In this document: positions 1 through 18,088 of the stretch, piece after piece | Position numbering within the stretch: position 1 is the first letter of the stretch | Layout: each line of letters begins with the position of its first letter | Origin: Escherichia coli | Lineage (GTDB): Bacteria; Pseudomonadota; Gammaproteobacteria; Enterobacterales; Enterobacteriaceae | Direction: 5' to 3' (one strand) | DNA length: 64,000 nt | Assembly: GCF_013122565.1 (NCBI RefSeq) | Contig: NZ_CP053258.1 | Translations under genes and position numbers: made by a program | Notes under the pieces: generated by a model | What the model saw: the letters and a program-made list of their open reading frames with translations, nothing else | Told to the model about the DNA's origin: nothing | The model's database searches: none

Positions 1-92
1 GGCAGACAAAAGACAAAGCTACCGCACATAACCACCCACCGGGGTTACGCCATTTATTCACTGTAATTTCCTTTAAACTCAAATAATAAAAA

Positions 93-117
93 CCGGCCTG
101 GCTATTTGCCGGGCCGG
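93..117 (-). terminator. Rho-independent terminator downstream of hcp
   Basis: Minus-strand hairpin CCGGCCCGGCAAATAGCCAGGCCGG followed by TTTTTATT, immediately 3' of the hcp stop. Confidence 0.6.
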
Positions 118-128
118 AAAAGTACTGC

Positions 129-620
129 TTAAATTTCTTTATTGGCCTTGAAGTCGTAGCCTGCGGTGATGGTGCCGCCGCTGCCACCTTGCTGGTTCTG
201 CACCACGTATTCCTGCTTCACGGTGCTGAAAGAGAGTTCGACCATTTCACGGGAGGCAATCTCCCCTTCCTTGCTGCCACTGGGAGATACAACAGCCACA
301 ATAAGGTCAGTGAAGGTATATTTGAGATATTCCAGCGGATTGCCGCCTGCTTTACGCATGGTCAGCACAGCTTTCGGAATGTGTTTGCCGGAGGCGCAGT
401 ATTTGAACAGGTTAGGACTGGCACGATCGATATAGTGGTCAAAGTCCAGGTTGGTCACGGAGACTTTACCGGATCCCAGGCCACTGCCCGCGTGCATGGT
501 GGACTCCTGGTGAATATTCCAGCGCCAGCTCAGCACCTCAATTTCATTTTTATGTTTGTCATCCATTGACTCGCCGTCAATGCCGTCAATTTTCAGAAAA
601 ATGTCATAAGCCATTTTCAT
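129..620 (-). CDS. hcp: T6SS tube protein Hcp (TssD)
   Basis: 163-aa ORF, ATG start; recognisable Hcp1-family sequence (MKMAYDIFLKIDGIDGES...); sits in a T6SS gene cluster. Confidence 0.93.
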   Translation of the reverse strand: MKMAYDIFLKIDGIDGESMDDKHKNEIEVLSWRWNIHQESTMHAGSGLGSGKVSVTNLDFDHYIDRASPNLFKYCASGKHIPKAVLTMRKAGGNPLEYLKYTFTDLIVAVVSPSGSKEGEIASREMVELSFSTVKQEYVVQNQQGGSGGTITAGYDFKANKEI

Positions 621-831
621 TTCCTTATTAAGAATTACTTAAAATAATCTCTGGTTTATCTTCGCATCTGAATTCAGGTAAACCATAGCCGTACAGAACC
701 TCCTCTCCTTAATTTAAGAAGAACAGAAGGCTCTATATTTTTCAGAACTTAAGTACCAGACAGAAAATCATTCACGAAATAAATGTTTATCAATTATATA
801 TAGTTAACTGATAACATATTCTACTGGACTT

Positions 832-1287
832 TCATTCACATATTAAAGATACGGGTTTCTCCCTTGGTGGTTCATCGAAATAAAGAGTCTTACAGGAATG
901 AGTATTTACAGGTACTGGCTGAGATAACCAGACCAGTCCGTAGCTATAAATACAGGAAAACCAGTATCTGTCGCTCTCTTTCGCTGTCGCGCCTTCTGTA
1001 TTCCATATCAACCATGTTTCCTGTTTTATTTTTTTCATCTCTGGCTTCTGATCGCCAAAATTTTCCGGTTTATCCTGTGTGACACTAATATGCGTTAACC
1101 ACTGACGAGGCTCCTGCCGTGGGGAAACTCTCCATTGCGGCTGGACAAATGATTTCAGAACCGCGGTGTAAGGCTCCGTTTCAACAAAAACAGGACAAGT
1201 AACTTCCCATGCCGACACATTTTGTGCATAAAACAAGGCAACACCAGAAAGAAGCAATACAGGAAAGCGCATCATCGTACCTTCCAT
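832..1287 (-). CDS. Exported cysteine-containing protein; candidate T6SS immunity protein
   Basis: 151 aa; N-terminal Sec signal peptide (MMRFPVLLLSGVALFYAQNVSA/WE); 4 Cys in mature part; start ATG overlaps upstream stop (TAATG); located between the putative effector and hcp. Confidence 0.6.
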   Translation of the reverse strand: MEGTMMRFPVLLLSGVALFYAQNVSAWEVTCPVFVETEPYTAVLKSFVQPQWRVSPRQEPRQWLTHISVTQDKPENFGDQKPEMKKIKQETWLIWNTEGATAKESDRYWFSCIYSYGLVWLSQPVPVNTHSCKTLYFDEPPREKPVSLICE

Positions 1288-1670
1288 TATTCAATTACAT
1301 AAAATGCTTCAGCATTACTGCTGGCGCTGGGATACGAACCGTCAGAGTTTGCTCCGCCTTTCGGTCTGAGTTGATGTTTTTCGATTCTGATCTGCGTTCT
1401 CCACTGATCCATAACCCAGATCCCTCGTTTATCCTGCCCCAGATAGAATGCAGCATGATTACCTGAACTCCTGCCAGGCCATCGCCCATTAAAAAAAGTG
1501 GCAATAGCGGTACCTTTTGGAATGGTGGTGTCCCCCCACACTTTCTTACCCGCACGCCATGTTGCTGTGGAGCCAAGATGTGCATACCTTTTAACCAGAG
1601 TTACACACTCACCATCCCCCACTAATGGCTGCCCCTGTAATAAATCCACTGATTCATAAACTCGCGACAT
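1287..1670 (-). CDS. Candidate T6SS amidase effector, papain-like (CHAP/NlpC-P60-type) fold
   Basis: 127 aa, no signal peptide; GECVTLVKRY motif (Cys22), GNHAAFYLG (His72), downstream Asp88/Gln89, spacing typical of CHAP/NlpC-P60 Cys-His-polar triads; SD GAGGG upstream; coupled to the downstream exported protein. Confidence 0.6.
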   Translation of the reverse strand: MSRVYESVDLLQGQPLVGDGECVTLVKRYAHLGSTATWRAGKKVWGDTTIPKGTAIATFFNGRWPGRSSGNHAAFYLGQDKRGIWVMDQWRTQIRIEKHQLRPKGGANSDGSYPSASSNAEAFYVIE

Positions 1671-1709
1671 GTTATTGCCCTCTGATGTTACGCAGAATCC
1701 TTAGATGTA

Positions 1710-3224
1710 TCAGGCATTACCCTGTTTTACCGACGGCAGTTTTGTGACCAGACGCAGTGATCCTGTTAACCCTTCAAGCTGAAAATGCGGGCGCAGGAAG
1801 AATTTGGCATCGTAATAACCCGGATTACCTTCCACCTCTTCCACCACCACTTCGGCTGCTGCTAGTGGGCGACGAGCTTTGGTTTCCTGTGAGGAGTTCA
1901 CCGGATCGGCATCGACGTAGTTCATGATCCACTCATTGAGCCAGCGCTGCATATCTTCACGCTCTTTGAACGAGCCGATCTTGTCGCGCACGATACATTT
2001 GAGGAAGTGCGCAAACCGTGAACAGGCGAAAAGATATGGCAAACGAGCTGAGAGATTAGCGTTGGCCGTAGCGTCCGGATCGTAATATTCCTGCGGTTTT
2101 TGCAGCGACTGTGCGCCAATAAAGGCGGCATAATCGGAGTTTTTGCGGTGGATCAGCGGGATAAAACCGTTTTTGGCCAGTTCAGCTTCACGGCGATCAG
2201 AGATGGCAATTTCCGTCGGGCATTTCATATCCACGCCGCCGTCATCGGTCGGGAAGGTATGACAGGGTAGATTTTCCACCGCGCCACCAGATTCAACACC
2301 ACGGATCAACGTACACCAACCGTAATGTTTGAAAGAACGGTTGATATTTACACCCATTGCATAGGCGGCATTGCTCCAGACATATTTGCTGTGATCTGCG
2401 CCATCCGCATCTTCTTCAAAATCAAACTCATCTACAGGGTTTGTTTTCGCACCATAAGGCAAACGGGAGAGGAAACGTGGCATCGTCAGGCCAATGTAGC
2501 GAGAATCCTCACTTTTCCGCAGCGAGTTCCACGGTGCGTATTCGAGGTTTTGGGTCACAATTTTGGTCAAATCACGCGGGTTAGCCAGTTCCTGCCAGGA
2601 GTCCATCTGCAACACTGACGGAGAGGCCCCGGCAATAAACGGCGCATGGGCTGAGGCTGCTACTTTGGCAATGGAACCGAGCAGATCCACATCCGGTGGC
2701 GTGTGATCAAAATAATAATCCGCAATAATACAACCGTAAGGTTCTCCACCTAACTGTCCATATTCAGCTTCATACAGCTTTTTGAACATGGGGCTTTGAT
2801 CCCAGGCTATCCCTTTGTAACGTTTCATATTTTTCCGCAATTCATCCTTCGAAAGGTTCATAAAGCGGATTTTTAATTTTTCATCGGTTTCAGTGTTGTA
2901 AACCAAATGTTCCATCCCACGCCAGGAGGACTCCAGTTTCTGAAATTCCGGATGACTCAGGATGAGTTTGATCTGCTCGGTTAATTTGAAATCAATCTGC
3001 TCAATAATCGCAGCAATACTTTTATAAGCGTCGTCACTGACGGTGACGGTATTTGTCAGAGCCTGTTGGGCCAGCGTCTGAACTGCTGCCTCAACAGCCT
3101 TTGCTGCCTGAGGTGTCTTGGGACGGAAGGCTTTATCCAGGAGCGAATCAAATTCAGTGTCCTGATAGGCAGTGGTTTGCGCAGCAGAGAGATCGCCAGT
3201 CGCCAGAAGAGTATCGTTTACCAT
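1710..3224 (-). CDS. tssC: T6SS contractile sheath large subunit TssC (VipB/ImpC)
   Basis: 504-aa ORF with recognisable TssC sequence; immediately downstream of tssB. Confidence 0.95.
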   Translation of the reverse strand: MVNDTLLATGDLSAAQTTAYQDTEFDSLLDKAFRPKTPQAAKAVEAAVQTLAQQALTNTVTVSDDAYKSIAAIIEQIDFKLTEQIKLILSHPEFQKLESSWRGMEHLVYNTETDEKLKIRFMNLSKDELRKNMKRYKGIAWDQSPMFKKLYEAEYGQLGGEPYGCIIADYYFDHTPPDVDLLGSIAKVAASAHAPFIAGASPSVLQMDSWQELANPRDLTKIVTQNLEYAPWNSLRKSEDSRYIGLTMPRFLSRLPYGAKTNPVDEFDFEEDADGADHSKYVWSNAAYAMGVNINRSFKHYGWCTLIRGVESGGAVENLPCHTFPTDDGGVDMKCPTEIAISDRREAELAKNGFIPLIHRKNSDYAAFIGAQSLQKPQEYYDPDATANANLSARLPYLFACSRFAHFLKCIVRDKIGSFKEREDMQRWLNEWIMNYVDADPVNSSQETKARRPLAAAEVVVEEVEGNPGYYDAKFFLRPHFQLEGLTGSLRLVTKLPSVKQGNA

Positions 3225-3248
3225 GAAAGTTCCTTAATAAAATCGCAG

Positions 3249-3794
3249 TTAGTCTGCTGTTCCCGTTTCACCTGATAAGACACTTTCCTGTTGAGCGACA
3301 GGTTTTGGCGCACTGGCCAGAGCTTTCAGTAACGTAGGGTCTTGTAATAGTTTGTTGATAAGATTTTCTGCTCCCGCTTTACCATCCATATACGTTTGTA
3401 GGTTGGCAAGCTGAGTACGCGCTTCCAGCAGCTGGTTCAGGGCATCCACCTTACGGGCAATCTGCGCAGGCGAAAAATCGTCCATATTCTCCAGCGTGAT
3501 ATCGACCATTAACTGCCCTTCGCCCGTCAGCGTATTGGGGACAGCAAACGCCACGCGCGGCGCAATGGCTTTCATCCGCTCGTTGAAGTTATCGATATCA
3601 ATATCAAGGAATTTACGATCGGTGACCGGTGGCAGCTCTTCGCGAGGTTTACCGGCCAGATCGGCCAGCACCGCCATGACAAACGGCAGTTCGATTTTTT
3701 TCTCGGAGCCGTAAATCTCAACGTCATACTCAATCTGCACGCGGGGCGCACGGTTGCGGGCAATAAACTTCTGCGCGCTATTGTTGATAGCCAT
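3249..3794 (-). CDS. tssB: T6SS contractile sheath small subunit TssB (VipA/ImpB)
   Basis: 181-aa ORF with recognisable TssB sequence (…RVQIEYDVEIYGSEKKIELPFVMAVLADL…). Confidence 0.95.
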   Translation of the reverse strand: MAINNSAQKFIARNRAPRVQIEYDVEIYGSEKKIELPFVMAVLADLAGKPREELPPVTDRKFLDIDIDNFNERMKAIAPRVAFAVPNTLTGEGQLMVDITLENMDDFSPAQIARKVDALNQLLEARTQLANLQTYMDGKAGAENLINKLLQDPTLLKALASAPKPVAQQESVLSGETGTAD

Positions 3795-3855
3795 AATCCT
3801 TCATTTCCTTATCAGTCAGCCGACGACCACCTGGGGAGTGGCCCGACGGTACAGT

Positions 3856-4146
3856 TTAAAAATCATACGCAGAGAGTATTTTTATAATCTCTTTGTTTTC
3901 TTTGTACTTTTCCCGCAGCACAGGGAGTGATTTCTTCGCTGGAGGACACCAGGTATCAACCCCCTTTTCGATGTCTCTTTTATCCTTCTCTGGTAAAGAA
4001 CTGTCCCATTCACCAGCAAGATGCTGGCACATTTCCGCATTACTCAGAAAATGCTGCACATCCTGTGGTAAAGACGGTTCCCCCTGAGCACAGAAAGCGA
4101 ACATCATTAACAGGAATGTCCACAACACCGGATAACGAAATGTCAT
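3856..4146 (-). CDS. Small exported protein of unknown function (T6SS-embedded)
   Basis: 96 aa; hydrophobic signal peptide (MTFRYPVLWTFLLMMFAFCAQG/EP); charged Lys/Glu-rich mature region with 2 Cys; sits between clpV and tssB. Confidence 0.55.
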   Translation of the reverse strand: MTFRYPVLWTFLLMMFAFCAQGEPSLPQDVQHFLSNAEMCQHLAGEWDSSLPEKDKRDIEKGVDTWCPPAKKSLPVLREKYKENKEIIKILSAYDF

Positions 4147-4148
4147 AC

Positions 4149-4352
4149 TTAATGTCCATCAATTGACCAGTGCATGAGATATGCTCTAGCGGGAGGGCGA
4201 TATGTTGCAGAGATACTGACCCTTGCACGCGCATTACCAAGCGCGCGCAAAAAATTATCTACCGATACACGAAAAGTCCCCTGCAAATCATTGGTGGAAG
4301 AACTTCCAGGAAAGCGACTGACCCACAGCGCGCCACTTAATTCTTTTTCCAT
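4149..4352 (-). CDS. Hypothetical small protein (67 aa), uncertain
   Basis: ORF fills the gap between clpV and the 96-aa ORF; GGAG about 9 nt upstream of ATG; stop 2 nt before the next ATG; contains rare Arg codons, no recognisable motif. Confidence 0.25.
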   Translation of the reverse strand: MEKELSGALWVSRFPGSSSTNDLQGTFRVSVDNFLRALGNARARVSISATYRPPARAYLMHWSIDGH

Positions 4353-4364
4353 AAGGATGCTCCA

Positions 4365-6998
4365 TTAATCCGTTTCAAAAATAATCTGTTCATCCTCATC
4401 AACACGAATGCGGATTTGCGTGATGGCCGTTTTCTCTGTCATCGCCTGCAACCAGTAACGGGACAGTTGTGGGAGGATATGTTGTTCGATATAGCCGATG
4501 AGCAAACGAGCGCCGGTTTCGTGCATCGGGCAGCGCGACACAATATGCGTAATCAATTCATCGCCATACACCAGTGAAACGCCATGCTGCTCCGCCATCC
4601 GATCCATCAATCTGCCAAGATGCAGGCGGGCAATAACACCACGCGCGGTCTCATCCAGCGGTAAATAAGGAATAACCGTCACACGCCCCAGGAAAGCCGC
4701 CGGGAAGTGTTTACGTAACTCCGGCATTAACGCCTCTTTTAATCCTGCCGAATCAGGCATCAGCGCCGGATCCTCACAGAGCTGGCTGATAAGTTCCGCT
4801 CCCGCGTTAGTAGTCAACAACAGCGTGGTATTTTTGAAATCGATGTGGACACCTTCGCCATCTTCCATCGCCCCCTTATCAAACACCTGGAAGAACAGCT
4901 CGTGGACGTCGTGATGGGCTTTTTCAATTTCATCCAGCAATACCACGCTCCAGGGATGGCGGCGTACCGCTTCTGTCAACACGCCGCCTTCGCCATAACC
5001 CACGTAGCCGGGCGGTGCGCCTTTCAGCGTGGAAACGGTGTGGGACTCCTGAAACTCGCTCATGTTGATGGTGATCAGGTTCTGCTCACCGCCATAGATA
5101 GCCTCTGCCAGCGCCAGAGCGGTCTCAGTCTTGCCAACACCGGACGGCCCGGCCAGCAAAAAGACGCCCACAGGCTTACGCGGGTCACCTAAACCCGCCC
5201 GCGCGGTCTGGATACGCTCGCCAATCTGCGCCAGCGCGTCCCTCTGCCCGGTAACACGCTGCGCCAGACGGGCGGGCAGTTCCAGGATCTGACTGGCCTC
5301 ATCTTTCACCATGCGTCCGGCGGGAATACCGGTCCAGTCGGAGACAATCTCTGCCACCACGGTTGCACTGACTTCCGGGTACACGACGGGGTTTTCACCC
5401 TGCCAACCTCTTAATGCCGTTTCTGCCTGTTGTAGAGTGATTTCGTCGCGCTCGCCGGGCTCTGCGCCGCGTTGCTCGTGTAAACTGCGAACCAACTCCA
5501 GTTCCTGCTGCCACCGCGCTTCGGTGTCAGAAAGATCGGCATTCAGCGATATAATCCGCGCCGCCAGTACATCGCCCCGCTCCGAGCGGATACCCATTTT
5601 TTCCTGCTTTAATAACAACTCCTGCTCCAGTTCGGCAGCGTTGAGCTGCTGGCGCAGATACTGGACTCTCGCAGGCGGGGTATGCAGCGACAGCGCTACA
5701 CGGGCCGCCGCCGTATCCAGCAGGCTGATGGCCTTATCCGGTAGTTGCCGGGACGGAATGTACCGGTGAGAAAGCTGTACCGCGGCGCGCACGGCCTCAT
5801 CAAGGATCAGGACGTCATGGTGTTTTTCAAGCGTGGTGACTAACCCGCGTACCATCTCAACAGCCGCAACCTCTTCTGGCTCAGCAACCTGCAATACCTG
5901 AAAACGCCGGGTCAGCGCCGGATCCTTTTCGATATGGCGTTTGTACTCGCTCCAGGTAGTTGCGCCGATGGTGCGCAGGGTTCCACGCGCCAGCGCCGGT
6001 TTCAGCAGGTTGGCAGCATCCCCCGTACCGGATGTACCACCAGCGCCCACCAGCGTGTGAACTTCATCAACAAAAAGGATCACCGGCTGCGGCGAGCGCG
6101 CGGCCTCTTCCAACAACGCTTTCAGGCGGGATTCAAATTCACCCTTCATGGACGCCCCTGCCAGCAGCGCTCCAACATCCAGTGACAGCAACCGCACGTT
6201 ACGCAGTGAAGGCGGTACTTCCCCCCCGGCAATCGCCAGCGCGAATCCTTCCACCACTGCCGTTTTCCCGACTCCCGCCTCGCCGGTCAGCAGCGGGTTG
6301 TTCTGGCGACGGCGCAGCAGAATATCCGTCATAGTACGGATCTCGTGTTCGCGACCGGTGACCGGATCGATATTGCCTTCACGGGCCAGCGCAGTCATGT
6401 CCTGGCAGTATTTCGCCAGCGCGGATTTGCTTCCGGTTGATTCGCCGGCAAAGACCTGGCTAGCTTCCCCCGGTACTGCAGAATTTAAATCCGAGCCGTC
6501 ATAAGGCATTTCTGTTAATTCAGGAGATGAAGTGATTAAAGACGGAAGAATATCTAATAGTTCATCTACCGGTAGCTCTGCCAATGGCGCACAAATATTT
6601 TTTAACACCCGACACAATTCTGGCGTGGTTAACCAGGCAAGTAATAACCATCCACTACGAATTTTTTGATCGCCAAAGCGGATACTTGCCAACATCCAGG
6701 CTTTTTCAACAGAAAGATCGATATGATGGGAAAAATCGTTAATTACACTCGCTCCGGCAGGCAATATATTCAATTGCTGAATTAACGCCTTCTCAACATC
6801 AGCAGATGTTATTTGATAATGTCGAAGCACATTGTGAATGTCATTCTCTGGTTGTTGTATTAACTGATGCAACCAATGTGTCAGTTCGACATAAGGATTA
6901 GCGCGTAATTTACAGAACGTTGTCGCAGATTCCAAAGATCTAAACAAAGATTTGGTTAGCTTTCCATATAGTGCACTGCGCGAAACAGGAGTGTCCAT
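4365..6998 (-). CDS. clpV: T6SS AAA+ ATPase ClpV (TssH)
   Basis: 877 aa; two Walker A motifs (GEAGVGKT, GPSGVGKT); ClpB-like architecture without a long middle domain; T6SS context. Confidence 0.95.
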   Translation of the reverse strand: MDTPVSRSALYGKLTKSLFRSLESATTFCKLRANPYVELTHWLHQLIQQPENDIHNVLRHYQITSADVEKALIQQLNILPAGASVINDFSHHIDLSVEKAWMLASIRFGDQKIRSGWLLLAWLTTPELCRVLKNICAPLAELPVDELLDILPSLITSSPELTEMPYDGSDLNSAVPGEASQVFAGESTGSKSALAKYCQDMTALAREGNIDPVTGREHEIRTMTDILLRRRQNNPLLTGEAGVGKTAVVEGFALAIAGGEVPPSLRNVRLLSLDVGALLAGASMKGEFESRLKALLEEAARSPQPVILFVDEVHTLVGAGGTSGTGDAANLLKPALARGTLRTIGATTWSEYKRHIEKDPALTRRFQVLQVAEPEEVAAVEMVRGLVTTLEKHHDVLILDEAVRAAVQLSHRYIPSRQLPDKAISLLDTAAARVALSLHTPPARVQYLRQQLNAAELEQELLLKQEKMGIRSERGDVLAARIISLNADLSDTEARWQQELELVRSLHEQRGAEPGERDEITLQQAETALRGWQGENPVVYPEVSATVVAEIVSDWTGIPAGRMVKDEASQILELPARLAQRVTGQRDALAQIGERIQTARAGLGDPRKPVGVFLLAGPSGVGKTETALALAEAIYGGEQNLITINMSEFQESHTVSTLKGAPPGYVGYGEGGVLTEAVRRHPWSVVLLDEIEKAHHDVHELFFQVFDKGAMEDGEGVHIDFKNTTLLLTTNAGAELISQLCEDPALMPDSAGLKEALMPELRKHFPAAFLGRVTVIPYLPLDETARGVIARLHLGRLMDRMAEQHGVSLVYGDELITHIVSRCPMHETGARLLIGYIEQHILPQLSRYWLQAMTEKTAITQIRIRVDEDEQIIFETD

Positions 6999-7330
6999 CT
7001 GTTACACCTGATGATGTAAGAACATATAAATGATACATAAACATAACTGTACCGATTAAAACTTCTAATTAATAGAATTATCAAAAAGGCAGAATGAAAC
7101 AATGATGCATATCACAGAACCCAATGTAATATAGCAGGTAGTATCGTTTTTATGGTGATATTCAATAGCGTAAGCCAATTTCATACAAGCCATGAATATA
7201 TTAAATTGAAAATCGCCAATATATATTTCTGTAAAAACTTATATTGATAAAGCAAATTGATCAGCATTGCTTATCTAAAAATTTAGAAAACTTATTCTTT
7301 TGAAAGAAACACTCTACACAGTGATACACA
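6999..7330. promoter_or_regulatory. AT-rich divergent control region between clpV operon and the plus-strand T6SS operon
   Basis: 332 bp noncoding, visibly AT-rich relative to the flanking genes; contains a GATC-centred palindrome at 7246-7275. Confidence 0.5.
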
Positions 7331-8245
7331 ATGAAACAAAATATTACGTGGGGACTCCAAAAAAAACAGGCGCACGGGATCGCCGATAACACAATTTACG
7401 CGACTGAAGGAACACAAATTATCTTTACCGTTACCTCTCCCTGGATTCCTGTTTTTGAGGTGAATGATGATGTAAAGATTGCCCTCAGTCTGACCCGCCA
7501 CGAAGAAGCATGGTGGATTATTAATCAGTCTACCGAATATTGCTGTACGGTAAACGACCAGATTGTGGAACCTCATCACCGTATGCGTCTGAATGAAGGC
7601 GATCAGATAGAATGGGGGTTATCTTCATGGTGCCTTGTGCATGGCACCCCATCATCTCCGGACATGAGCGCAGTAAAAACAATATCGCAGACTGCCATCA
7701 CGTCGGAAACAATAACCGAATATCTGGATCTGGATTGGTTCAGGCAGCAGCATCTGACATCACAAAATCCATTCGATATCATTCCTGTTCATGGAGCCTC
7801 CTCCACCGGAGAAGATGCGGAAAAAGAAAATGCCCTGACCCGACTTTATCAGGAATACCGCGAGGCGTTGTTATCTCCCGAAGAAGATCTTCATCGCCAT
7901 GCTGATCCTTTTCCCTTTAACGAAGAGCCCTCCTCGCAGGATCTGGATTCATTGCGTGACCTGGTCACCGAAGCCGATACATTGCAGGATATGGTCACTG
8001 GTGGGTTAAGCATTGACGCTATTCTCAATGTACTGGATGCCACCGGCGAAGATGAAACTATCTGGCCTGTCGAAAAGACTCCCCCTGATATCCTGCATTT
8101 ACTTTCCCCGGAATACGCCCCGGAAACAGCGCATAACACCGTACTGCCAGATCTGACACGCAAAGAGCACCGCATTATCGGCATTGACAGCCATTACCGG
8201 ATAAACCCGGCACAACACGGAGATATCTCTCATGACAAACAATAA
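7331..8245 (+). CDS. T6SS-associated protein of unknown function; possible degenerate FHA-like N-terminal domain
   Basis: 304 aa, ATG start; N-terminal region has FHA-reminiscent elements (SLTRHEEAWWIINQS…RLNEGDQIEWG); C-terminal half acidic/Pro-rich and low complexity; first gene of the operon containing tagJ-tssEFG-tssA. Confidence 0.65.
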   Translation: MKQNITWGLQKKQAHGIADNTIYATEGTQIIFTVTSPWIPVFEVNDDVKIALSLTRHEEAWWIINQSTEYCCTVNDQIVEPHHRMRLNEGDQIEWGLSSWCLVHGTPSSPDMSAVKTISQTAITSETITEYLDLDWFRQQHLTSQNPFDIIPVHGASSTGEDAEKENALTRLYQEYREALLSPEEDLHRHADPFPFNEEPSSQDLDSLRDLVTEADTLQDMVTGGLSIDAILNVLDATGEDETIWPVEKTPPDILHLLSPEYAPETAHNTVLPDLTRKEHRIIGIDSHYRINPAQHGDISHDKQ

Positions 8246-9062
8246 CGTGCTACCGGCTACCCTGTCGGCGCTGCTGCGGGATTATTCCGTGGCGGAGGGC
8301 ATTCAGATGGCAGAGCAGCAGGTCAGGATGCACCCAGCGCAGGCCTCCCGCCGCCACAGCCTGTTTCAGTTACTGTGCGTGGCAGGCGACTGGTCGCGGG
8401 CGCTGCAACAGATCCAGCTGTGCGACCGGATGGACGCAAATTATACCCGCGAAGCGCAGGTATTTGGCGAGCTGATCCGCTGTGAGATATACCGCCACGC
8501 CTGCTTTCAGGGGGAACAGCGGCCCGGTTTTATTCTCCCGCCGCCCGCCTGGATGGAGGATCTACTGGCTGCTCTCGCCTGTAACGCCCGTAGTGAAGCG
8601 CAGGAAGCTGATGTCCACCGCAGCCGCGCGCTTGAGGCCATAACAGACACTTCTGGGCAGTGGAATGGCGGCGCGTTTGACTGGATTAGCGACAGCGACT
8701 CCCGTACCGGTCCGGTACTCGAACTGATCGCAGGCGGGGTGTATATCTGGCTGCCATTCTCACAAATTCGCTCACTGAAATCGCCGCAGCCTGCGCATCT
8801 GACCGATTTGCTCTGGAAACCCGTCAACGTCACCCTGCACAACGGTGACACGCACAGTGCCTGGCTGTTTCCCCGCTACAGCGGCTCTGAAAAGGCCGCC
8901 GACTCCCTGCGTCTGTGCCGGGAAACGGTCTGGCAGGACGGGCCGGGAGAGACGCTGGTACAGGCGCTGGGTCAGAGGGTGTGGCTCACCAGCCAGGGCG
9001 ATATCAGCCTGCTGGATTTGTCCACCTGTACCTTTAATACCTCCGAAGGAAGCGACGCGTGA
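8232..9062 (+). CDS. tagJ: T6SS accessory protein TagJ (ImpE/SciE family)
   Basis: 276 aa; N-terminal region with the ImpE-family motif LFQLLCVAGDWSRALQQ. Confidence 0.85.
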   Translation: MTNNNVLPATLSALLRDYSVAEGIQMAEQQVRMHPAQASRRHSLFQLLCVAGDWSRALQQIQLCDRMDANYTREAQVFGELIRCEIYRHACFQGEQRPGFILPPPAWMEDLLAALACNARSEAQEADVHRSRALEAITDTSGQWNGGAFDWISDSDSRTGPVLELIAGGVYIWLPFSQIRSLKSPQPAHLTDLLWKPVNVTLHNGDTHSAWLFPRYSGSEKAADSLRLCRETVWQDGPGETLVQALGQRVWLTSQGDISLLDLSTCTFNTSEGSDA

Positions 9063-9553
9063 GCACCTCCCGCCAGCGTCCGGGCAGCCACCTGCTGCCC
9101 ACACTGTTTGACCGTCTGTGCGATGACGCCCCAGACCAGAAGCGCGACCACGATATCAGCGTCAGCCCGGTTCAGCTTAAGGAGATCATCCGCCGGGACT
9201 TGTCGTTTCTGCTCAACACCGTCAGCCATGAAGATGATATTGATGCCGCACGTTACCCACACGCGGCAGCATCTGTACTGAACTACGGCCTGCCGCCACT
9301 GGCGGGCAGCTTTCTGTATGAACACAAGTGGGACGATATCCGCAGGGCCATTTTGCGTACCATCACCCGGTTTGAACCCCGGCTGAAAGCGTCCACCCTG
9401 CAAATCATCCCACTTCAGGATGAGCGCCGCCAGAGTGGCCATAACACATTACAGTTTGAAATTCGCGGCGAGATCCTCACGCAGCCTTACCCGACGGCAT
9501 TCCGGGTACGCAGCGCGCTGGATATGGAACAAAGCCGCATTACGTTTTTTTAA
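9059..9553 (+). CDS. tssE: T6SS baseplate protein TssE (gp25-like)
   Basis: 164 aa; GTG start overlapping tagJ stop (GTGA); gp25/TssE-like sequence; precedes tssF-tssG. Confidence 0.85.
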   Translation: MSTSRQRPGSHLLPTLFDRLCDDAPDQKRDHDISVSPVQLKEIIRRDLSFLLNTVSHEDDIDAARYPHAAASVLNYGLPPLAGSFLYEHKWDDIRRAILRTITRFEPRLKASTLQIIPLQDERRQSGHNTLQFEIRGEILTQPYPTAFRVRSALDMEQSRITFF

Positions 9554-9568
9554 TTCAGAGAGAAACCG

Positions 9569-11452
9569 ATGGATCCACGGCTACTGGAATACTACAACCG
9601 CGAACTGAGCTATCTGCGGGAAACGGGAGCCGAATTTGCCGCCCGTCATCCCAAAGTCGCCGCCCGGCTGGGCATGCAGGGAACGGATATTGCCGATCCG
9701 TATGTGGAGCGGATGGTCGAAGCCTTCAGCTTCCTGACCGCCCGCACGCAGCTAAAAATTGACGCTGAATTCCCTCGTTTCACCCAGCGCCTGCTGGAAG
9801 TGGTCAGCCCCAATTACGTCACACCCACGCCCTCAATGAGCGTGGCGCAGTTGCATCCCGATACGGAAGAAGGCGATCTGGCAAAAGGATTTACCGTCCC
9901 GCGCGACACGGCCTTTTTCTCCGCCATTCCGGAAGGCGAAAGCACTGCCTGCCAGTTTCGCAGCAGCCAGGATGTAACGCTGTGGCCGCTCGCCATCGAA
10001 GAGGCGCGACTGACCGCCGCGCCGCCGGATATGCCTGCCCTGCACCGCTACCTGCCGGCCAACATTCACGTCGCCGGGGCGCTGCGTATTACCCTGCGCA
10101 CCTTTGGTGAACTAACGTTCAGTCAGCTTGCCGGACTGGACAGGCTGCCGTTTTATCTCTGCGGCGAGGAGCGTACGGCCTCACACCTGTTCGAACTTCT
10201 ACATACCAGCGCCATCGCGACCCTGGCTGGCATTCCGGGACATTTTGACGGCGCGTTGGATGTGAATCTGCAACAGCCCGTTATGTACGAAGGCCTGGAG
10301 CCGGATCAGGGGCTGCTGCCGCTGGCGTGGAACGTGTTTCACGGTCATAACCTGCTGCATGAATATTTTGCCTGTCCGGAACGCTTCTATTTTTTCACCC
10401 CGACAGGCCTGTCTGCCGGATTACAGAAAATTGACGGTGGCGTGGCGGAGATTGTTATCCTGCTGAACCGCCTGCCGCCGGACTGGCTGATCCACCAGAC
10501 AAATACGGCACAGTTCAGCCTGTTCTGTACCCCGGTTATCAACCTGTTTCCCCGCGTCACCGCCCGGATCGATGTCACGCACAGCACGACGGAACAGCAT
10601 CTGGTGGTGGACAGAACCCATCCGCTGGATTATGAGGTGTTCTCGGTCCAGGAAGTGGAAGGGCTGGAAACCGACACCACACGGAAGATGGCCTTTCGCC
10701 CGCTCTACCACACCCGCAATAACGATGAAGGCAATCACGGGCGTTATTTTTCCCTGCGCCGGGAGCCGCGCCGCTTATCAGAAAACGCCCGCCGTTACGG
10801 TACCCGTACTCCCTATACGGGATCAGAAGTGTTCCTGTCGCTGGTTGACCAGTATGAAGCGCCGTACCCGGAAAATCTGCGCCACATCACCATCACGGCC
10901 ATGATCACTAACCGCGATCTGCCCTGTCTTATTGCCCGCAATGGCCGGGACGATCTAACCGTGGATGCGGCCATCCCGGTGGCGGGCGTAGGGCTTATCC
11001 GCCCGCCACGCTCGCCGCAGCCCCCGCTGGCTGAACGTGAGATGGCATGGCGGTTGATCCGCCAGTTATCTTTTAATTATCTGCCGCTGGCCGATCTGGA
11101 TCACCGTACCGGCGGCCAGGCGTTGCGAGATCTGCTGAACCTGTTTATTCCTGCTCATGACAGTCCGCAATCGCGCCAGGTGCGCAGCCTGATTGGTTGT
11201 AAAACGACCCCGGTCACCCGCCGTCTGCCCGGTTCCGGACTACTGGTCTATGGGCGTGGCGTCAGTTGTGAACTGACGGTGGATGAAGAAGGTTTTTCCG
11301 GCATCAGTCCGTATCTGTTCGGCCTGGTGCTGGAACACTATATCGCCCGCCATGTTTCCATTAATACCTTCTCGCAGATGACGCTGCACAGCATGCAGCG
11401 TGGCAAAATTATGACCTGGCCTGTCAGGGCGGGACAGCGGGGAAGCGTATGA
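9569..11452 (+). CDS. tssF: T6SS baseplate protein TssF (ImpG)
   Basis: 627 aa; recognisable TssF sequence; stop overlaps tssG start (ATGA). Confidence 0.92.
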   Translation: MDPRLLEYYNRELSYLRETGAEFAARHPKVAARLGMQGTDIADPYVERMVEAFSFLTARTQLKIDAEFPRFTQRLLEVVSPNYVTPTPSMSVAQLHPDTEEGDLAKGFTVPRDTAFFSAIPEGESTACQFRSSQDVTLWPLAIEEARLTAAPPDMPALHRYLPANIHVAGALRITLRTFGELTFSQLAGLDRLPFYLCGEERTASHLFELLHTSAIATLAGIPGHFDGALDVNLQQPVMYEGLEPDQGLLPLAWNVFHGHNLLHEYFACPERFYFFTPTGLSAGLQKIDGGVAEIVILLNRLPPDWLIHQTNTAQFSLFCTPVINLFPRVTARIDVTHSTTEQHLVVDRTHPLDYEVFSVQEVEGLETDTTRKMAFRPLYHTRNNDEGNHGRYFSLRREPRRLSENARRYGTRTPYTGSEVFLSLVDQYEAPYPENLRHITITAMITNRDLPCLIARNGRDDLTVDAAIPVAGVGLIRPPRSPQPPLAEREMAWRLIRQLSFNYLPLADLDHRTGGQALRDLLNLFIPAHDSPQSRQVRSLIGCKTTPVTRRLPGSGLLVYGRGVSCELTVDEEGFSGISPYLFGLVLEHYIARHVSINTFSQMTLHSMQRGKIMTWPVRAGQRGSV

Positions 11453-12444
11453 GCAACGATTTCACTCAGGCGCAGGAAACCCCCTGGCGTTACGGTTTTC
11501 TGAACCTGATGCGCCGCGTTGATGTGCAGTTGTGTACCGTTCCGGCGGACAACACCTGGCAACCACGGATGGAAAAATTTCGCCTCGGACAAACGCCCAC
11601 GCTGACCTTTGCGCCACGGGAAATCGCCAGTGTGAGCTGGCAGGAAGGACGCCTGCATATCAGCCTGTACAGTCTCGGGCTGTGGGGGCCGAACGGTCCG
11701 TTGCCGCTGCACTACACCGAACTGGCGCGCAACCGGACCGAAAGCCGACGCGATCCGACGCTGACCCGTTTTTCCGATCTTTTTCATCACCGCTGGCTGA
11801 CGCAGTTTTACCAGGCATGGCGCAGCGCCCAGTCAGCCGGGGGCGGTCTGGATAAACCGCAGCATGACCGCTTTGCCTTTTATATCGCCAGCCTCAGCGG
11901 GCAGGATTTAAGGGAGAGCGCCGACAGCCCGTTGCCGGATCACGTTCGCCTGGCGGCATCGGCGCATCTGGTGCGTGAGTCCCGCAATCCGGACGGTCTG
12001 GCCGCCACGCTGGCGCACTATTTTGGCGTACCTTTCCGGATACAGGAGTATGTCCTGCACTGGATAGCCGTGGCGGAGGATGAGATCACCCGGCTGGGGA
12101 TGCCTGCCCCCTCTTCCGTTATTGGCAATGGTGCACTCATCGGCCAGGCCGTGCCGGACATGCAGTATAAGTTCCGGCTGGTTATCGGCCCGCTGACGCT
12201 GGAGGATTACCGACGTTTTCTGCCTGGCGGCAATAACCTGCCCGTCCTGACAGAACTGGTCCGCGCCTTTAGTGGTTTTGAATACTGCTGGGAAATTGAG
12301 CTACAACTAAAGCCCCACGCCGCCCCTCCGGCTGTTACCGGTGGTCCGTACCAACTGGGTTGGACCGCATGGGCGGGTAAAGCCATGCACGACAACCCGG
12401 TGACGGGCATGATTTTCGAACCAGAACACTACCTGGCGCACTGA
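11449..12444 (+). CDS. tssG: T6SS baseplate protein TssG (ImpH)
   Basis: 331 aa; recognisable TssG sequence; translationally coupled to tssF. Confidence 0.9.
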   Translation: MSNDFTQAQETPWRYGFLNLMRRVDVQLCTVPADNTWQPRMEKFRLGQTPTLTFAPREIASVSWQEGRLHISLYSLGLWGPNGPLPLHYTELARNRTESRRDPTLTRFSDLFHHRWLTQFYQAWRSAQSAGGGLDKPQHDRFAFYIASLSGQDLRESADSPLPDHVRLAASAHLVRESRNPDGLAATLAHYFGVPFRIQEYVLHWIAVAEDEITRLGMPAPSSVIGNGALIGQAVPDMQYKFRLVIGPLTLEDYRRFLPGGNNLPVLTELVRAFSGFEYCWEIELQLKPHAAPPAVTGGPYQLGWTAWAGKAMHDNPVTGMIFEPEHYLAH

Positions 12445-12454
12445 GGATAATTAA

Positions 12455-13501
12455 ATGGAAATATTCCTGTCTGACCCAATTTCGGCGGAATGTCCCTGCG
12501 GCCCGGATCTGGAGTACGATCCGGAATACCTGCTACTGTTCACTCGCGCCGCACCGCGTGAAGAAGCGCAATACGGCGATTTTGTCAGTACGCCGGAAAC
12601 CATTAACTGGGCGGAGCTTGAGCGGGACGCCCATCGTCTGCTGATGCGCAGCAAAGATATCCGCATTCTGGTTGTCCTGCTGCGCTGCCGTATCCAGCAG
12701 GCCGGCGCACAGGGACTGGCAGACGCGCTCGCGTTGCTGGAAACGTTGTGCGCCACGTACCCGGACGCCATCCATCCGCAACTGCTCGCGACTGAAGATA
12801 TCACCGCCGAAGAGGCGGCAGTGGCACGTAGTAACGCGCTGGCGGCGTTGCTGGACCACGAAGGAGTAATGGCGGATATTCGTGGCATTACACTGTCAAA
12901 TAATGTCGCCATGTGCCTTCAGGTTCGCGATGTGGAGCGTTCGCTGTCAGCATCACGCCCGGCGGATGCGCTGGCACCGGAATCAGTACGCCAGCAACTG
13001 GCCGACCTGGAAGCGCGCGGCACATTGCCGCTGGATGCCTTTCGCCAGGCCGCAGAGACCACTGAACGGCTGCAACGCCATGCGCGTGAAACGCTGAATG
13101 ACCAGGCACCGGACTTCTCCCGTCTGACGCAACTGCTGGCCCTGTTACCGGGAGCAGTGCAGAGCACCACGCCGGAGATCCTGCCACAACCACAGGCTGA
13201 ACAGCCGGAGAATGCCACCATCGATAATACTGAAAAGATGCAGGCAGAGCAGATTGCGCTAGCGGTGCATATCGCGGAGGAAATATCACCGATATCCGGC
13301 GCAGAACCTCGGCAGATCCGCGACCGGAACGATGCGCTGGAACGCCTGCGTGTCATCCGTCGCTGGTTTGAGCACAGCGAACCGAGCAGCCCGACCATTC
13401 CTTTGCTGCTCCAGGCAGAACGCCTGGTCGGAAAACGCTTCTCTGAGGTAATAAATGAAATTCCAGTAGAACTGCTGGAGAAATGGGATGCGCTGGAGTA
13501 A
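12455..13501 (+). CDS. tssA: T6SS protein TssA (ImpA N-terminal domain family, short form)
   Basis: 348 aa; N-terminal ImpA_N signature (DPISAECPCGPDLEYDPEY); SD GAGG upstream. Confidence 0.85.
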   Translation: MEIFLSDPISAECPCGPDLEYDPEYLLLFTRAAPREEAQYGDFVSTPETINWAELERDAHRLLMRSKDIRILVVLLRCRIQQAGAQGLADALALLETLCATYPDAIHPQLLATEDITAEEAAVARSNALAALLDHEGVMADIRGITLSNNVAMCLQVRDVERSLSASRPADALAPESVRQQLADLEARGTLPLDAFRQAAETTERLQRHARETLNDQAPDFSRLTQLLALLPGAVQSTTPEILPQPQAEQPENATIDNTEKMQAEQIALAVHIAEEISPISGAEPRQIRDRNDALERLRVIRRWFEHSEPSSPTIPLLLQAERLVGKRFSEVINEIPVELLEKWDALE

Positions 13502-13592
13502 CAGAAGTGGTCAGAATTTATAATGTCTGGCCATTTTTAAATCATATCGTTTTACTTCCGGAGTGAAAAATTCTCACTTCACCAAAACGACG

Positions 13593-13624
13593 AAAGCCCG
13601 AATCATTGCTGATTCGGGCTTTCT
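13593..13624 (-). terminator. Hairpin terminator 3' of aspV
   Basis: Perfect inverted repeat GAAAGCCCGAATC…GATTCGGGCTTTC immediately downstream of the tRNA 3' end, followed by a T-run on the minus strand. Confidence 0.6.
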
Positions 13625-13630
13625 GAATAT

Positions 13631-13707
13631 TGGCGGAACGGACGGGACTCGAACCCGCGACCCCCTGCGTGACAGGCAGGTATTCTAACCGACTGAACTA
13701 CCGCTCC
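13631..13707 (-). tRNA. aspV: tRNA-Asp (GTC)
   Basis: Reverse complement matches the E. coli tRNA-Asp sequence including encoded CCA. Confidence 0.97.
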
Positions 13708-13839
13708 GCGTTGTGTTCCGTTGGGAACGAGGCGAATATTACGGATTGCCTCACCCTTCGTCAACGGTTTTTCTCATCCTTTGAATCGTTTGCTGCAAAA
13801 ATCGCCCAAGTCGCTATTTTTAGCGCCTTTTACATGTAT

Positions 13840-14571: not shown

Positions 14572-14635
14572 AGCGGTCATTTATGTCAGACTTGTCGTTT
14601 TACAGTTCGATTCAATTACAGGAAGTCTACCAGAG

Positions 14636-15840: not shown

Positions 15841-15852
15841 ACTGAGAGGTAA

Positions 15853-16611
<759 letters not shown>

Positions 16612-18041: not shown

Positions 18042-18058
18042 CAAACCAGATAATAAAA

Positions 18059-18086: not shown

Positions 18087-18088
18087 AT

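What the first reader, a model, noticed from the sequence alone, without database searches (positions are those of the whole stretch)
1..13630. T6SS island inserted next to aspV; accessory relative to K-12
Everything from dnaQ rightwards follows the K-12 gene order, but on the 3' side of aspV (where K-12 has yafT and downstream genes) this genome carries T6SS genes. The aspV terminator hairpin (13593-13624) is retained and island sequence begins within about 90 bp of it. The gene set and divergent two-operon layout resemble aspV-linked T6SS clusters of E. coli and Salmonella. In-window core parts are Hcp, TssB, TssC, ClpV, TssE, TssF, TssG, TssA and TagJ; TssJ/K/L/M, VgrG and PAAR are not in the window and are presumably upstream of position 1.
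Basis: partly seen in the sequence, partly recalled or inferred. Interest (0 to 1): 0.5.

Follow-up and report, generated by a model that had tools for sequence, protein, structure and literature searches.

The report
Salmonella SPI-6-type T6SS beside E. coli aspV
The first 13.6 kb of the window is the aspV-proximal part of a type VI secretion gene cluster in an E. coli chromosome. It is the counterpart of the Salmonella SPI-6 system (subtype i3), not the usual E. coli aspV-linked type, so it is a known kind of bacterial weapon in a less familiar host.

Summary
Window 1-13630 carries intact hcp, tssC, tssB, clpV, tagK, tagJ, tssE, tssF, tssG and tssA in two divergent operons, ending about 130 bp from tRNA-Asp aspV. 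From 13624 rightwards the window is colinear with K-12 at 98-99%, and K-12 has none of these genes here.

- K-12 homology stops 7 nt past aspV. The hairpin at 13592-13623 is a real, covarying terminator, but it is a different allele from K-12's.
- The first 61 nt of the window already encode the start of TssJ.
- TagK, a Tae2 amidase effector with a probable Tai2 immunity gene, and a dead effector remnant were missed.
- The cluster is not the common E. coli aspV T6SS (subtype i1, O157 OI#7). It is gene-for-gene syntenic with Salmonella SPI-6 (subtype i3): TssC 94%, Hcp 96% identity.

Only 114 of 5426 complete E. coli genomes carry most of it. The closest relatives have a 35.3-kb aspV-yafV segment with tssJKLM, tagF, vgrG and a PAAR-Rhs. 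That segment has no integrase and no aspV direct repeat. Synonymous divergence from Salmonella equals that of the flanking housekeeping genes, so this is an old locus, not a recent import.

It is a new member of a known kind and of modest interest.

The parts
1..61 (-). tssJ, first 20 codons only (the gene runs off the left end of the window)
   Evidence: tblastn: 100% identity to the TssJ start of LHM10-1 and 83% to Salmonella TssJ. Annotated tssJ sits at the same place in L001 and L013.
129..620 (-). hcp / tssD tube protein (likely start at 614)
   Evidence: TIGR03344, 59.6 bits. 96% identity to Salmonella SPI-6 Hcp. No significant similarity to the Hcp of the O157 i1 system.
832..1287 (-). 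STY0301-family protein with an N-terminal signal peptide; probable Tai2-type periplasmic immunity protein
   Evidence: NF042415, 52.7 bits. Its start overlaps the tae2 stop by 1 nt. 47% identity to the gene at the same position in Salmonella SPI-6. The immunity role is inferred, not tested.
1287..1670 (-). tae2, type VI amidase effector 2 (peptidoglycan DD-endopeptidase)
   Evidence: NF033857 BPSL0067 family, 161.6 bits. PDB 6WIN 'Type 6 secretion amidase effector 2', E 1.6e-33, with Cys22 and His72 aligned to conserved Cys and His. SPI-6 variable region 1 is known to hold Tae2/Tai2 (PMC10469887).
1710..3224 (-). tssC, sheath large subunit
   Evidence: TIGR03355, 715.6 bits. 94% identity to SPI-6 TssC. 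Best solved relative is the P. aeruginosa H1-T6SS sheath 5N8N at 803 bits, against VipB at 375 bits.
3249..3794 (-). tssB, sheath small subunit
   Evidence: TIGR03358, 190.3 bits. 95% identity to SPI-6 TssB.
3856..4146 (-). orf96, small secreted protein; probable orphan immunity protein
   Evidence: Signal-peptide-like N-terminus. 82% identity to the 96-aa ORF at the same place in Salmonella. No Pfam match.
4149..4352 (-). orf67, internally deleted remnant of a VanY/M15-like peptidoglycan peptidase effector
   Evidence: 535 relatives, whose full domain is about 190 aa. Alignment A2 shows the N-terminal 63 aa fused in frame to the last 4 aa, with the SRHTxxxAIDM motif lost. A model of a full-length relative (pLDDT 95.5) hits Ply500, VanY, LdcB and ChiX.
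4365..6998 (-). clpV / tssH, sheath-recycling AAA+ ATPase
   Evidence: TIGR03345, 1220.9 bits. 84% identity to SPI-6 ClpV.
6999..7330 (.). divergent control region between the clpV and tagK operons, 28% GC
   Evidence: Composition and sequence. No Fur box above chance. No promoter-like site stands out above the shuffled controls.
7331..8245 (+). tagK accessory protein
   Evidence: NF033418 equivalog, 549.6 bits. Relatives are confined to Escherichia, Shigella, Citrobacter, Enterobacter and Salmonella; 55% identity to Salmonella TagK.
8232..9062 (+). tagJ (ImpE) accessory protein
   Evidence: Pfam ImpE, 1.2e-40. 73% identity to the SPI-6 protein.
9059..9553 (+). tssE baseplate subunit
   Evidence: TIGR03357, 69.8 bits.
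9569..11452 (+). tssF baseplate subunit
   Evidence: TIGR03359, 620.2 bits. 627 aa, the same length as in Salmonella, and 91% identity.
11449..12444 (+). tssG baseplate subunit
   Evidence: TIGR03347, 332 bits.
12455..13501 (+). tssA (ImpA_N family, 348 aa)
   Evidence: TIGR03363, 148.4 bits, just under the 160.85 cut-off. Annotated as ImpA-family/TssA in relatives. 72% identity to SPI-6 TssA.
13592..13623 (-). intrinsic terminator hairpin of aspV (14-pair stem, GCAA loop, T-rich tail)
   Evidence: 100% paired in 6 Escherichia sequences, with 2 pairs changed on both sides. Differs from the K-12 hairpin.
13631..13707 (-). aspV, tRNA-Asp(GUC)
   Evidence: ARAGORN. Rfam tRNA, 67.7 bits.

Best explanation
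Window 1-13630 is the aspV-proximal third of a subtype i3 type VI secretion locus. It is the Escherichia counterpart of the Salmonella SPI-6 T6SS and occupies the variable aspV-yafV interval of an E. coli chromosome.

Inferred mechanism, from the known roles of these protein families:
- TssE, TssF and TssG (with TssK and VgrG encoded off-window) form a baseplate, and TssA primes assembly.
- An Hcp tube is wrapped by a TssB/TssC sheath.
- Sheath contraction fires Hcp, VgrG and a PAAR-Rhs toxin into neighbouring bacteria.
- ClpV, helped by TagJ, disassembles the contracted sheath.
- The in-window cargo is Tae2, a Cys-His amidase that cuts peptidoglycan cross-links in the prey periplasm. The adjacent signal-peptide protein of the STY0301 family is probably its immunity protein.
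- Two divergent operons start from a 332-bp, 28% GC region, a composition typical of H-NS-silenced promoters.

Inferred origin: the locus is old at this site rather than a recent integrase-mediated insertion. It has probably spread among Escherichia lineages by recombination through the conserved flanks. Most E. coli have lost it or replaced it with the i1 system or with short remnants such as K-12's yafT-yafF.
For: - Gene identities.
- Gene-for-gene synteny with SPI-6, including the aspV-dnaQ-rnhA-yafS-gloB-mltD flank.
- Protein identity to SPI-6 of 72-96% for core parts.
- Best solved TssC relative is the i3 archetype H1-T6SS.
- SPI-6 is subtype i3 and is flanked by tRNA-Asp in 90% of Salmonella sites (PMC12994826).
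- All in-window genes are intact, with dN/dS well below 1 against relatives (e.g. tssF 0.017/0.47, clpV 0.026/0.42).
- The closest genomes complete the set: tssJKLM, tagF, vgrG and a prePAAR/PAAR-Rhs.
- dS against Salmonella is 0.58-2.85 for island genes and 0.78-1.44 for flanking genes.
- No integrase and no aspV repeat in the 35.3-kb segment of the relatives.
- The same locus sits next to tRNA-Asp in three other GTDB species representatives labelled Escherichia.
- Internal-deletion remnants occur in E. coli MB56 and PE164.
Against: - About two thirds of the locus lies left of position 1 and cannot be seen for this genome.
- The two nearest relatives carry single-nucleotide disruptions in tssL (independent in each), and also in tagJ, tssK or tssH. 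The lineage may therefore be losing function, or those records may contain sequencing errors.
- Synonymous sites are saturated between genera, so dS excludes recent transfer but cannot prove vertical descent.
- The related clusters in Citrobacter sp. R56 and Enterobacter sp. ENT03 are not next to tRNA-Asp.
- Secretion, killing, regulation and the immunity role were not tested here.
Confidence: 0.8

Rival explanations
1. It is the ordinary E. coli aspV-linked T6SS (T6SS-2, subtype i1), as in O157 OI#7, APEC O1 and LF82 PAI I.
For: Same chromosomal site; the literature places the i1 system at aspV in many E. coli (PMC2941450; PMC2907695).
Against: O157 genomes share only 74 bp of clpV at 86% identity. 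The Hcp of the O157 TR01 aspV cluster shows no significant similarity (E 0.19). TagK and TagJ, the gene order and 94-96% TssC/Hcp identity all point to SPI-6.
Confidence: 0.02
2. It is a recently acquired mobile island, for example imported from Salmonella, that integrated site-specifically into the aspV 3' end.
For: tRNA-adjacent position. The right-hand operon is GC-richer than the flanks (0.577 vs about 0.50; GC3 0.63-0.72). Present in only about 2% of complete E. coli genomes.
Against: dS against Salmonella is about 1 or more, like the flanks, and TagK is only 55% identical. No integrase and no aspV direct repeat in the relatives' full island. The junction next to aspV differs between Escherichia and Salmonella.
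Confidence: 0.07
3. It is a decaying, non-functional relic retained only in part. The in-window genes look intact, but the system as a whole no longer fires.
For: The nearest relatives have disrupted tssL, tagJ, tssK or tssH. One effector between clpV and tssB is already dead (orf67). Deletion remnants of the locus exist in other E. coli. Salmonella serovars show the same decay pattern (PMC2907695).
Against: All ten in-window core and accessory genes (eight core, plus tagJ and tagK) are full length, match Salmonella lengths closely (TssE, TssF and TssG are identical in length), and show strong purifying selection. tagJ and clpV, broken in the relatives, are intact here. The relatives' tssL lesions are independent single-base events and could be sequencing errors.
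Confidence: 0.25

Closest known systems
Salmonella enterica SPI-6 (SCI) T6SS, subtype i3
   Same: Same insertion site and orientation: tssA next to aspV, then dnaQ-rnhA-yafS-gloB-mltD. Same order: tssJ-hcp-variable region 1-tssC-tssB-96-aa ORF-clpV | tagK-tagJ-tssE-tssF-tssG-tssA. Identical or very close protein lengths (TssE, TssF and TssG identical). TssC 94%, TssB 95%, Hcp 96%, TssF 91% identity. Tae2-type effector in variable region 1.
   Different: Host is E. coli. TagK is only 55% and TssA 72% identical. No second hcp and no Tae4/Tai4 in variable region 1. The tssA-aspV spacer is unrelated in sequence. The relatives' island shows no saf/tcf fimbrial operons in the annotated 35 kb.
E. coli T6SS-2 (subtype i1) at aspV: O157 OI#7, APEC O1 AGI-1, LF82 PAI I
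   Same: Occupies the same aspV-yafV interval. It is also a complete T6SS with Rhs/VgrG cargo.
   Different: Different T6SS lineage. No DNA similarity beyond 74 bp of clpV, and Hcp is unrelated at BLASTP level. It is linked to the K-12-type aspV 3' flank, which is found in 2859 of 5426 genomes.
Pseudomonas aeruginosa H1-T6SS (archetype of subtype i3)
   Same: Closest solved sheath structure (5N8N, 803 bits). Has TagJ (from established knowledge). Delivers peptidoglycan amidase effectors paired with periplasmic immunity proteins.
   Different: H1 has the Fha/PpkA/PppA/TagQRST post-translational control genes (from established knowledge); none are seen in the window or in the relatives' annotation. 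TagK was found only in Enterobacteriaceae: Escherichia, Shigella, Citrobacter, Enterobacter and Salmonella.
Escherichia marmotae 'T6SS1'
   Same: Reported as more homologous to the Salmonella system than to E. coli systems (PMC6650469). An E. marmotae TagK is 75% identical to the window's.
   Different: Different species. Its locus was not examined here.

Membership tests
Canonical T6SS (class i) | The 13 core genes tssA-tssM | tested here: inconclusive
   Eight are intact in the window (tssA, B, C, D, E, F, G, H), plus the first 20 codons of tssJ. tssK, L, M and I lie off-window. They are present in the two closest genomes, though tssL is disrupted in both and tssK in one.
Canonical T6SS (class i) | PAAR spike tip and VgrG | not testable with these tools
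   Not in the window. In relatives, VgrG matches TIGR03361 at 557 bits, and an Rhs protein carries prePAAR and PAAR motifs.
T6SS subtype i3 / SPI-6 type | Sheath proteins cluster with SPI-6 and the P. aeruginosa H1-T6SS | tested here: met
   TssC 94% and TssB 95% identical to SPI-6. The best PDB relative is H1 TssC (803 bits) against V. cholerae VipB (375 bits). No formal tree was built.
T6SS subtype i3 / SPI-6 type | Gene order with tagK-tagJ-tssEFG-tssA divergent from clpV-tssB-tssC-variable region 1-hcp-tssJ | tested here: met
   Identical order in Salmonella loci L011 and L012.
T6SS subtype i3 / SPI-6 type | Location next to tRNA-Asp aspV | tested here: met
   The tssA stop is 129 nt from the aspV 3' end. 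Same in Salmonella (PMC12994826) and in three other GTDB species representatives labelled Escherichia.
E. coli T6SS-2 (subtype i1, OI#7 type) | Sequence similarity of core genes to the O157 aspV cluster | tested here: not met
   Only 74 bp of clpV match at 86%. Hcp comparison gives E 0.19.
Integrase-mobilised tRNA-targeting genomic island | Tyrosine integrase gene, and a direct repeat of the tRNA 3' end at the far boundary | tested here: not met
   No integrase is annotated in the 35.3-kb segment of LHM10-1 or VE-T9. No aspV repeat above chance (best 11 nt, E 1.1). This genome's own far end is off-window.
Tae2/Tai2 effector-immunity pair | Tae2 fold with conserved catalytic Cys and His | tested here: met
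   PDB 6WIN, E 1.6e-33 over residues 3-126. Cys22 and His72 align with conserved Cys and His. NF033857, 161.6 bits. Their catalytic role is inferred from the family.
Tae2/Tai2 effector-immunity pair | Adjacent periplasmic immunity protein that neutralises Tae2 | tested here: inconclusive
   The downstream gene overlaps tae2 by 1 nt and has a signal peptide. It belongs to the STY0301 family, named after a Salmonella Typhi locus tag. No solved relative and only 3 database relatives retrieved. Binding and neutralisation were not tested.

The most novel reading that the evidence does not exclude
E. coli may have a fourth, largely overlooked T6SS subclass (i3) that is the true orthologue of Salmonella SPI-6. 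On this reading it was present in the aspV-yafV interval before Escherichia and Salmonella diverged, and most E. coli lineages later lost it or replaced it with the i1 system. The SPI-6 T6SS would then be an ancestral enterobacterial locus rather than a Salmonella-specific acquisition. Surveys that list only i1, i2 and i4b in E. coli (PMC12282107) would be missing about 2% of genomes.
Probability: 0.35. Interest if true: 0.45.

Novelty: new member of a known kind. Interest (0 to 1): 0.3.

Why it matters
T6SS content shapes how E. coli strains compete in the gut.

- A 2025 survey of 131,610 genomes considered only subclasses i1, i2 and i4b (PMC12282107). Here, 114 of 5426 complete E. coli genomes carry at least 80% of this window's 13.6 kb of an SPI-6-type (i3) locus. 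That share is similar to the survey's 1.3% for i4b.
- Strains scored as T6SS-negative, or as i1 because of the aspV location, may therefore carry a different weapon with a different effector set (Tae2, PAAR-Rhs).
- The shared site, orientation and flank-like divergence with Salmonella give a concrete test of whether SPI-6 is ancestral or was acquired.

Beyond that, the system is a well-understood kind and nothing mechanistically new is indicated.

Tried and rejected
- **aspV direct repeat:** searched the far end of the island in LHM10-1 and VE-T9. Only chance-level matches of 10-12 nt were found.
- **Fur box in the divergent promoter region:** the best match is 13 of 19, no better than elsewhere in the window.
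- **Promoter and terminator scan:** total counts do not exceed the shuffled controls. Only the aspV hairpin and the aspV promoter stand out.
- **Rfam on 1-22500:** only the two tRNA-Asp genes and rRNA. The ARAGORN 'tRNA-His' inside tssF is not supported.
- **Genome-contig scan with TssA:** returned just 7 loci and missed Salmonella. Salmonella was reached instead through TagK homologues.
- **Pfam and PDB sequence searches for orf96, orf67 and the Tai2 candidate:** nothing found. The homologue search for the Tai2 candidate gave only 3 hits.
- **PDB profile search with the orf67 family alignment:** nothing found. Structure prediction plus Foldseek was needed.
- **Shared tssL lesion in the two nearest relatives,** which would have predicted a pseudogene in this genome: the lesions are different, so no inference is possible.
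- **Russell et al. 2012 (Tae2/Tai2):** not held in the library.

Full report
**1. What is in the sequence**

Six-frame ORF listing and NCBIfam, Pfam and PDB searches give two divergent operons.

On the minus strand, read from 6998 down to 1:
- clpV/tssH, 4365-6998
- orf67, 4149-4352
- orf96, 3856-4146
- tssB, 3249-3794
- tssC, 1710-3224
- tae2, 1287-1670
- an STY0301-family gene, 832-1287
- hcp, 129-620
- the first 20 codons of tssJ, 61-1

On the plus strand:
- tagK, 7331-8245
- tagJ, 8232-9062
- tssE, 9059-9553
- tssF, 9569-11452
- tssG, 11449-12444
- tssA, 12455-13501

The two operons are separated by 332 bp of 28% GC. aspV (tRNA-Asp GUC) lies at 13631-13707 on the minus strand, convergent with tssA. 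All core hits are far above the curated cut-offs. The exception is TssA (148 bits against a cut-off of 161), which relatives nonetheless annotate as ImpA-family/TssA. Overlapping start and stop codons (tagK/tagJ, tagJ/tssE, tssF/tssG, tae2/STY0301-family gene) fit operon organisation.

**2. Comparison with K-12**

- Window 13624-63587 is colinear with K-12 MG1655 at 98.3-99.3%, through dnaQ, rnhA, yafS, gloB, mltD, yafD, yafC, dkgB, aspU, rrnH and onwards.
- None of the T6SS proteins has a homologue in K-12 187,100-262,000.
- Homology stops at 13624, only 7 nt past the aspV 3' end.
- Past that point K-12 reads CTATTCACTCATGAAAATGAG...GCCGCAAGATTTTTAATTTTGCGGTTTTTTT. The window reads ATATTCAGAAAGCCCGAATCAGCAATGATTCGGGCTTTCGTCGTTTT.

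The window's hairpin (13592-13623, 14 pairs, GCAA loop, T-rich tail) is the strongest terminator-like site in the region. Across six Escherichia sequences it stays 100% paired, and two pairs are changed on both sides. It is therefore a real element, most simply the aspV terminator, but it is not the K-12 allele.

The K-12-type flank occurs in 2859 of 5426 complete E. coli genomes. The window-type spacer occurs in 88. One O157:H7 strain (TR01) has the window-type 51 nt joined directly to K-12/O157-type sequence. The hairpin thus behaves as an exchangeable terminator allele at the very edge of the variable segment.

**3. Which T6SS is it?**

The common aspV-linked T6SS of E. coli (O157 OI#7, APEC O1, LF82 PAI I) belongs to the group that contains Salmonella SPI-19 (PMC2907695; PMC2941450). 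That group is subtype i1, also called T6SS-2 (PMC12282107). The window is not that system:
- O157 genomes match only 74 bp of clpV at 86%.
- The Hcp of an O157 aspV cluster has no significant similarity to the window's Hcp.

Instead, Salmonella loci retrieved through TagK show the same order: tssK-tssJ-hcp-(tai4-tae4-hcp)-small ORF-tssC-tssB-96-aa ORF-clpV | tagK-tagJ-tssE-tssF-tssG-tssA-[aspV]-dnaQ-rnhA-yafS-gloB-mltD. Protein lengths are identical or very close: TssE 164, TssF 627 and TssG 331 aa in both, and TssB 181 against 180, TssC 504 against 502, ClpV 877 against 887.

Protein identities to the Salmonella locus:

| Protein | Identity |
|---|---|
| Hcp | 96% |
| TssB | 95% |
| TssC | 94% |
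| TssF | 91% |
| TssG | 85% |
| ClpV | 84% |
| TssE | 79% |
| TagJ | 73% |
| TssA | 72% |
| TagK | 55% |

The best solved TssC relative is the P. aeruginosa H1-T6SS sheath (5N8N, 803 bits), against 375 bits for V. cholerae VipB. SPI-6 is classified as subtype i3 and is flanked by tRNA-Asp in 90% of Salmonella sites (PMC12994826). I therefore file the window's cluster as an SPI-6-type, subtype i3 T6SS. No formal tree was built.

**4. Distribution and the unseen part**

- 114 of 5426 complete E. coli genomes hold at least 80% of the 13.6 kb. The best match is strain LHM10-1 at 97.3%.
- The flank (13500-22000) is at most 99.1% identical to any complete genome, with VE-T9 the best.
- In both LHM10-1 and VE-T9 the variable segment runs from aspV to just before yafV. 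In VE-T9 it is 35,322 bp and replaces K-12's 2,334 bp of yafT-ykfM-yafU'-yafF'.
- To the left of hcp these two genomes carry tssJ, tssK, tssL, two small ORFs, tssM, a TagF-domain gene, a glucosaminidase-domain gene, vgrG (TIGR03361, 557 bits), a DcrB-related gene, an Rhs protein with prePAAR and PAAR motifs, an Rhs fragment and an IS256 remnant.

Caveat: LHM10-1 has stops in tssL and tagJ, and VE-T9 has lesions in tssL, tssK and tssH. The two tssL lesions are different single-base events. In the window, tagJ and clpV are intact.

**5. Origin**

- No integrase is annotated in the relatives' 35 kb, and no repeat of the aspV 3' end occurs at the far boundary.
- Nei-Gojobori dS between the window and Salmonella is 0.58-2.85 for island genes and 0.78-1.44 for dnaQ, rnhA, yafS, gloB and mltD. 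This rules out recent exchange with Salmonella and is compatible with descent from a common ancestor. The sites are saturated, so it is not proof.
- The same cluster sits next to tRNA-Asp in three other GTDB species representatives labelled Escherichia: sp. E1V33, sp. MOD1-EC7003 and 'E. coli' E69. Related clusters in a Citrobacter and an Enterobacter are elsewhere.
- Within Escherichia the island is 2-4 times more divergent at synonymous sites than its flanks, and it is mosaic against LHM10-1 (92-100% per 500 bp). This suggests old alleles shuffled by recombination.
- E. coli MB56 and PE164 carry internal-deletion remnants: a tssA fragment, or tssF-tssG-tssA, fused to a vgrG fragment. This mirrors the ImpA-like remnants reported in Salmonella serovars that lost the SPI-6 T6SS (PMC2907695).
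- GC is heterogeneous: 0.577 for tagK-tssA, 0.424 for the tae2 region, 0.28 for the promoter region, and 0.529 overall against 0.514 for the rest of the window.

**6. Cargo**

The 127-aa protein downstream of tssC belongs to the BPSL0067 family (161.6 bits). It matches the solved 'Type 6 secretion amidase effector 2' (6WIN, E 1.6e-33), with Cys22 and His72 aligned to conserved residues. In SPI-6 this position is variable region 1, which holds Tae2/Tai2 and Tae4/Tai4, and Tae2 cleaves mDAP-D-Ala cross-links (PMC10469887).

The next gene overlaps tae2 by one base and encodes a signal-peptide protein of the STY0301 family. It has a 47% identical counterpart beside a Tae2 remnant in the Salmonella locus. 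I infer it is the immunity protein, but this is untested.

Between clpV and tssB lies orf67. Its 535 relatives form a domain of about 190 aa, found either free-standing or at the C-terminus of very long proteins. The alignment shows that orf67 is the first 63 residues fused in frame to the last four, apparently by deletion between two 'HWS' motifs, with the conserved SRHTxxxAIDM segment lost. A confident model of a full-length relative (pLDDT 95.5) matches Ply500, VanY, LdcB, VanX and ChiX. A few family members hit the VanY and Peptidase_M15_4 Pfam families. orf67 is therefore a dead peptidoglycan-peptidase effector. The adjacent secreted orf96, 82% conserved in Salmonella, is probably its surviving immunity gene. 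A 32-aa ChiX-like remnant was described at this position in Salmonella (PMC10469887).

**7. How it most likely works (inferred from the families, not shown here)**

- A contractile injection machine assembles on a TssJLM membrane complex and a TssEFGK-VgrG baseplate.
- TssA coordinates polymerisation of the Hcp tube and the TssBC sheath.
- Contraction expels Hcp, VgrG and PAAR-Rhs, together with small Hcp-borne cargo such as Tae2, into neighbouring Gram-negative cells.
- ClpV, with TagJ, recycles the sheath.
- Immunity proteins protect sister cells.
- The very AT-rich divergent promoter region suggests H-NS silencing, as reported for SPI-6. I found no convincing Fur box.

**8. Novelty**

The kind is well known, and RefSeq already annotates these genes in E. 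coli. [quoted passage not shown] However, the E. coli literature I could search lists only three subclasses (i1, i2, i4b; PMC12282107). I found no paper in the library describing an i3/SPI-6-type system in E. coli; the library is limited to open-access papers. I rate it a new member of a known kind, of modest interest.

Noticed in passing
window 4149-4352 (orf67) and 3856-4146 (orf96), minus strand: orf67 is an in-frame internal-deletion remnant of a roughly 190-aa VanY/M15-like peptidoglycan peptidase toxin domain. It keeps the N-terminal 63 aa and the last 4 aa, with the deletion apparently between two 'HWS' motifs. The adjacent signal-peptide ORF is conserved in Salmonella (82%) and looks like a retained orphan immunity gene.
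   Followed up: yes
window 11235-11328 (+), inside tssF; also L005 8781-8874: ARAGORN calls a 94-nt 'tRNA-His' inside the tssF coding sequence. Rfam's tRNA model does not report it. It is almost certainly a false positive.
   Followed up: partly
L014 5996-6061 (E. coli O157:H7 TR01, NZ_CP033605.1): A hybrid aspV 3' flank: the window-type 51-nt terminator hairpin is joined directly to K-12/O157-type sequence next to an i1 T6SS. The terminator allele and the island type can therefore be uncoupled by recombination.
   Followed up: partly
window 21810-21854 (downstream of aspU) compared with 13585-13630 (downstream of aspV): The aspU terminator (CTTATTAAGAAGCCTCGAG...CTCGAGGTTTTTTTTCGTCT) has the same layout and several shared bases as the window-type aspV terminator (ATATTCAGAAAGCCCGAAT...ATTCGGGCTTTCGTCGTTT). 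The K-12 aspV flank does not. The window-type flank may be the older tRNA-Asp terminator form.
   Followed up: no
L016 8128-9744 (E. coli MB56) and L017 7589-13000 (E. coli PE164): Internal-deletion derivatives of the same i3 island. In MB56 a 3' tssA fragment abuts a vgrG fragment. In PE164 intact tssF-tssG-tssA abut a vgrG fragment. The aspV-proximal end is what survives.
   Followed up: partly
L001 14868-16184 and L013 27199-28514 (tssL of LHM10-1 and VE-T9): tssL is disrupted in both closest relatives, but by different single-base events (TCG to TAG at codon 129; a 1-nt deletion at nt 413). VE-T9 also has lesions in tssK and tssH. These could be independent decay or assembly errors.
   Followed up: partly
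L011 about 3825-4400 (Salmonella enterica SPI-6 variable region 1): This Salmonella locus keeps a homologue of the STY0301-family gene (47% identity) next to only a fragment of tae2 (25% of its length). It appears to be an orphan immunity gene beside a decayed effector.
   Followed up: no
window 18696-18893: About 200 bp present in the window and in LHM10-1 is absent from K-12. It falls inside the yafE-like methyltransferase gene, which is 771 bp in the relatives and 624 bp in K-12.
   Followed up: no
window 1-13630 compared with 13708-22000: Within Escherichia the island is clearly more divergent than its flanks (dS 0.4-0.8 against 0.1-0.3). It is mosaic against its best match, with 500-bp identities from 92% to 100%. 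tagK, tagJ and tssA evolve fastest.
   Followed up: partly
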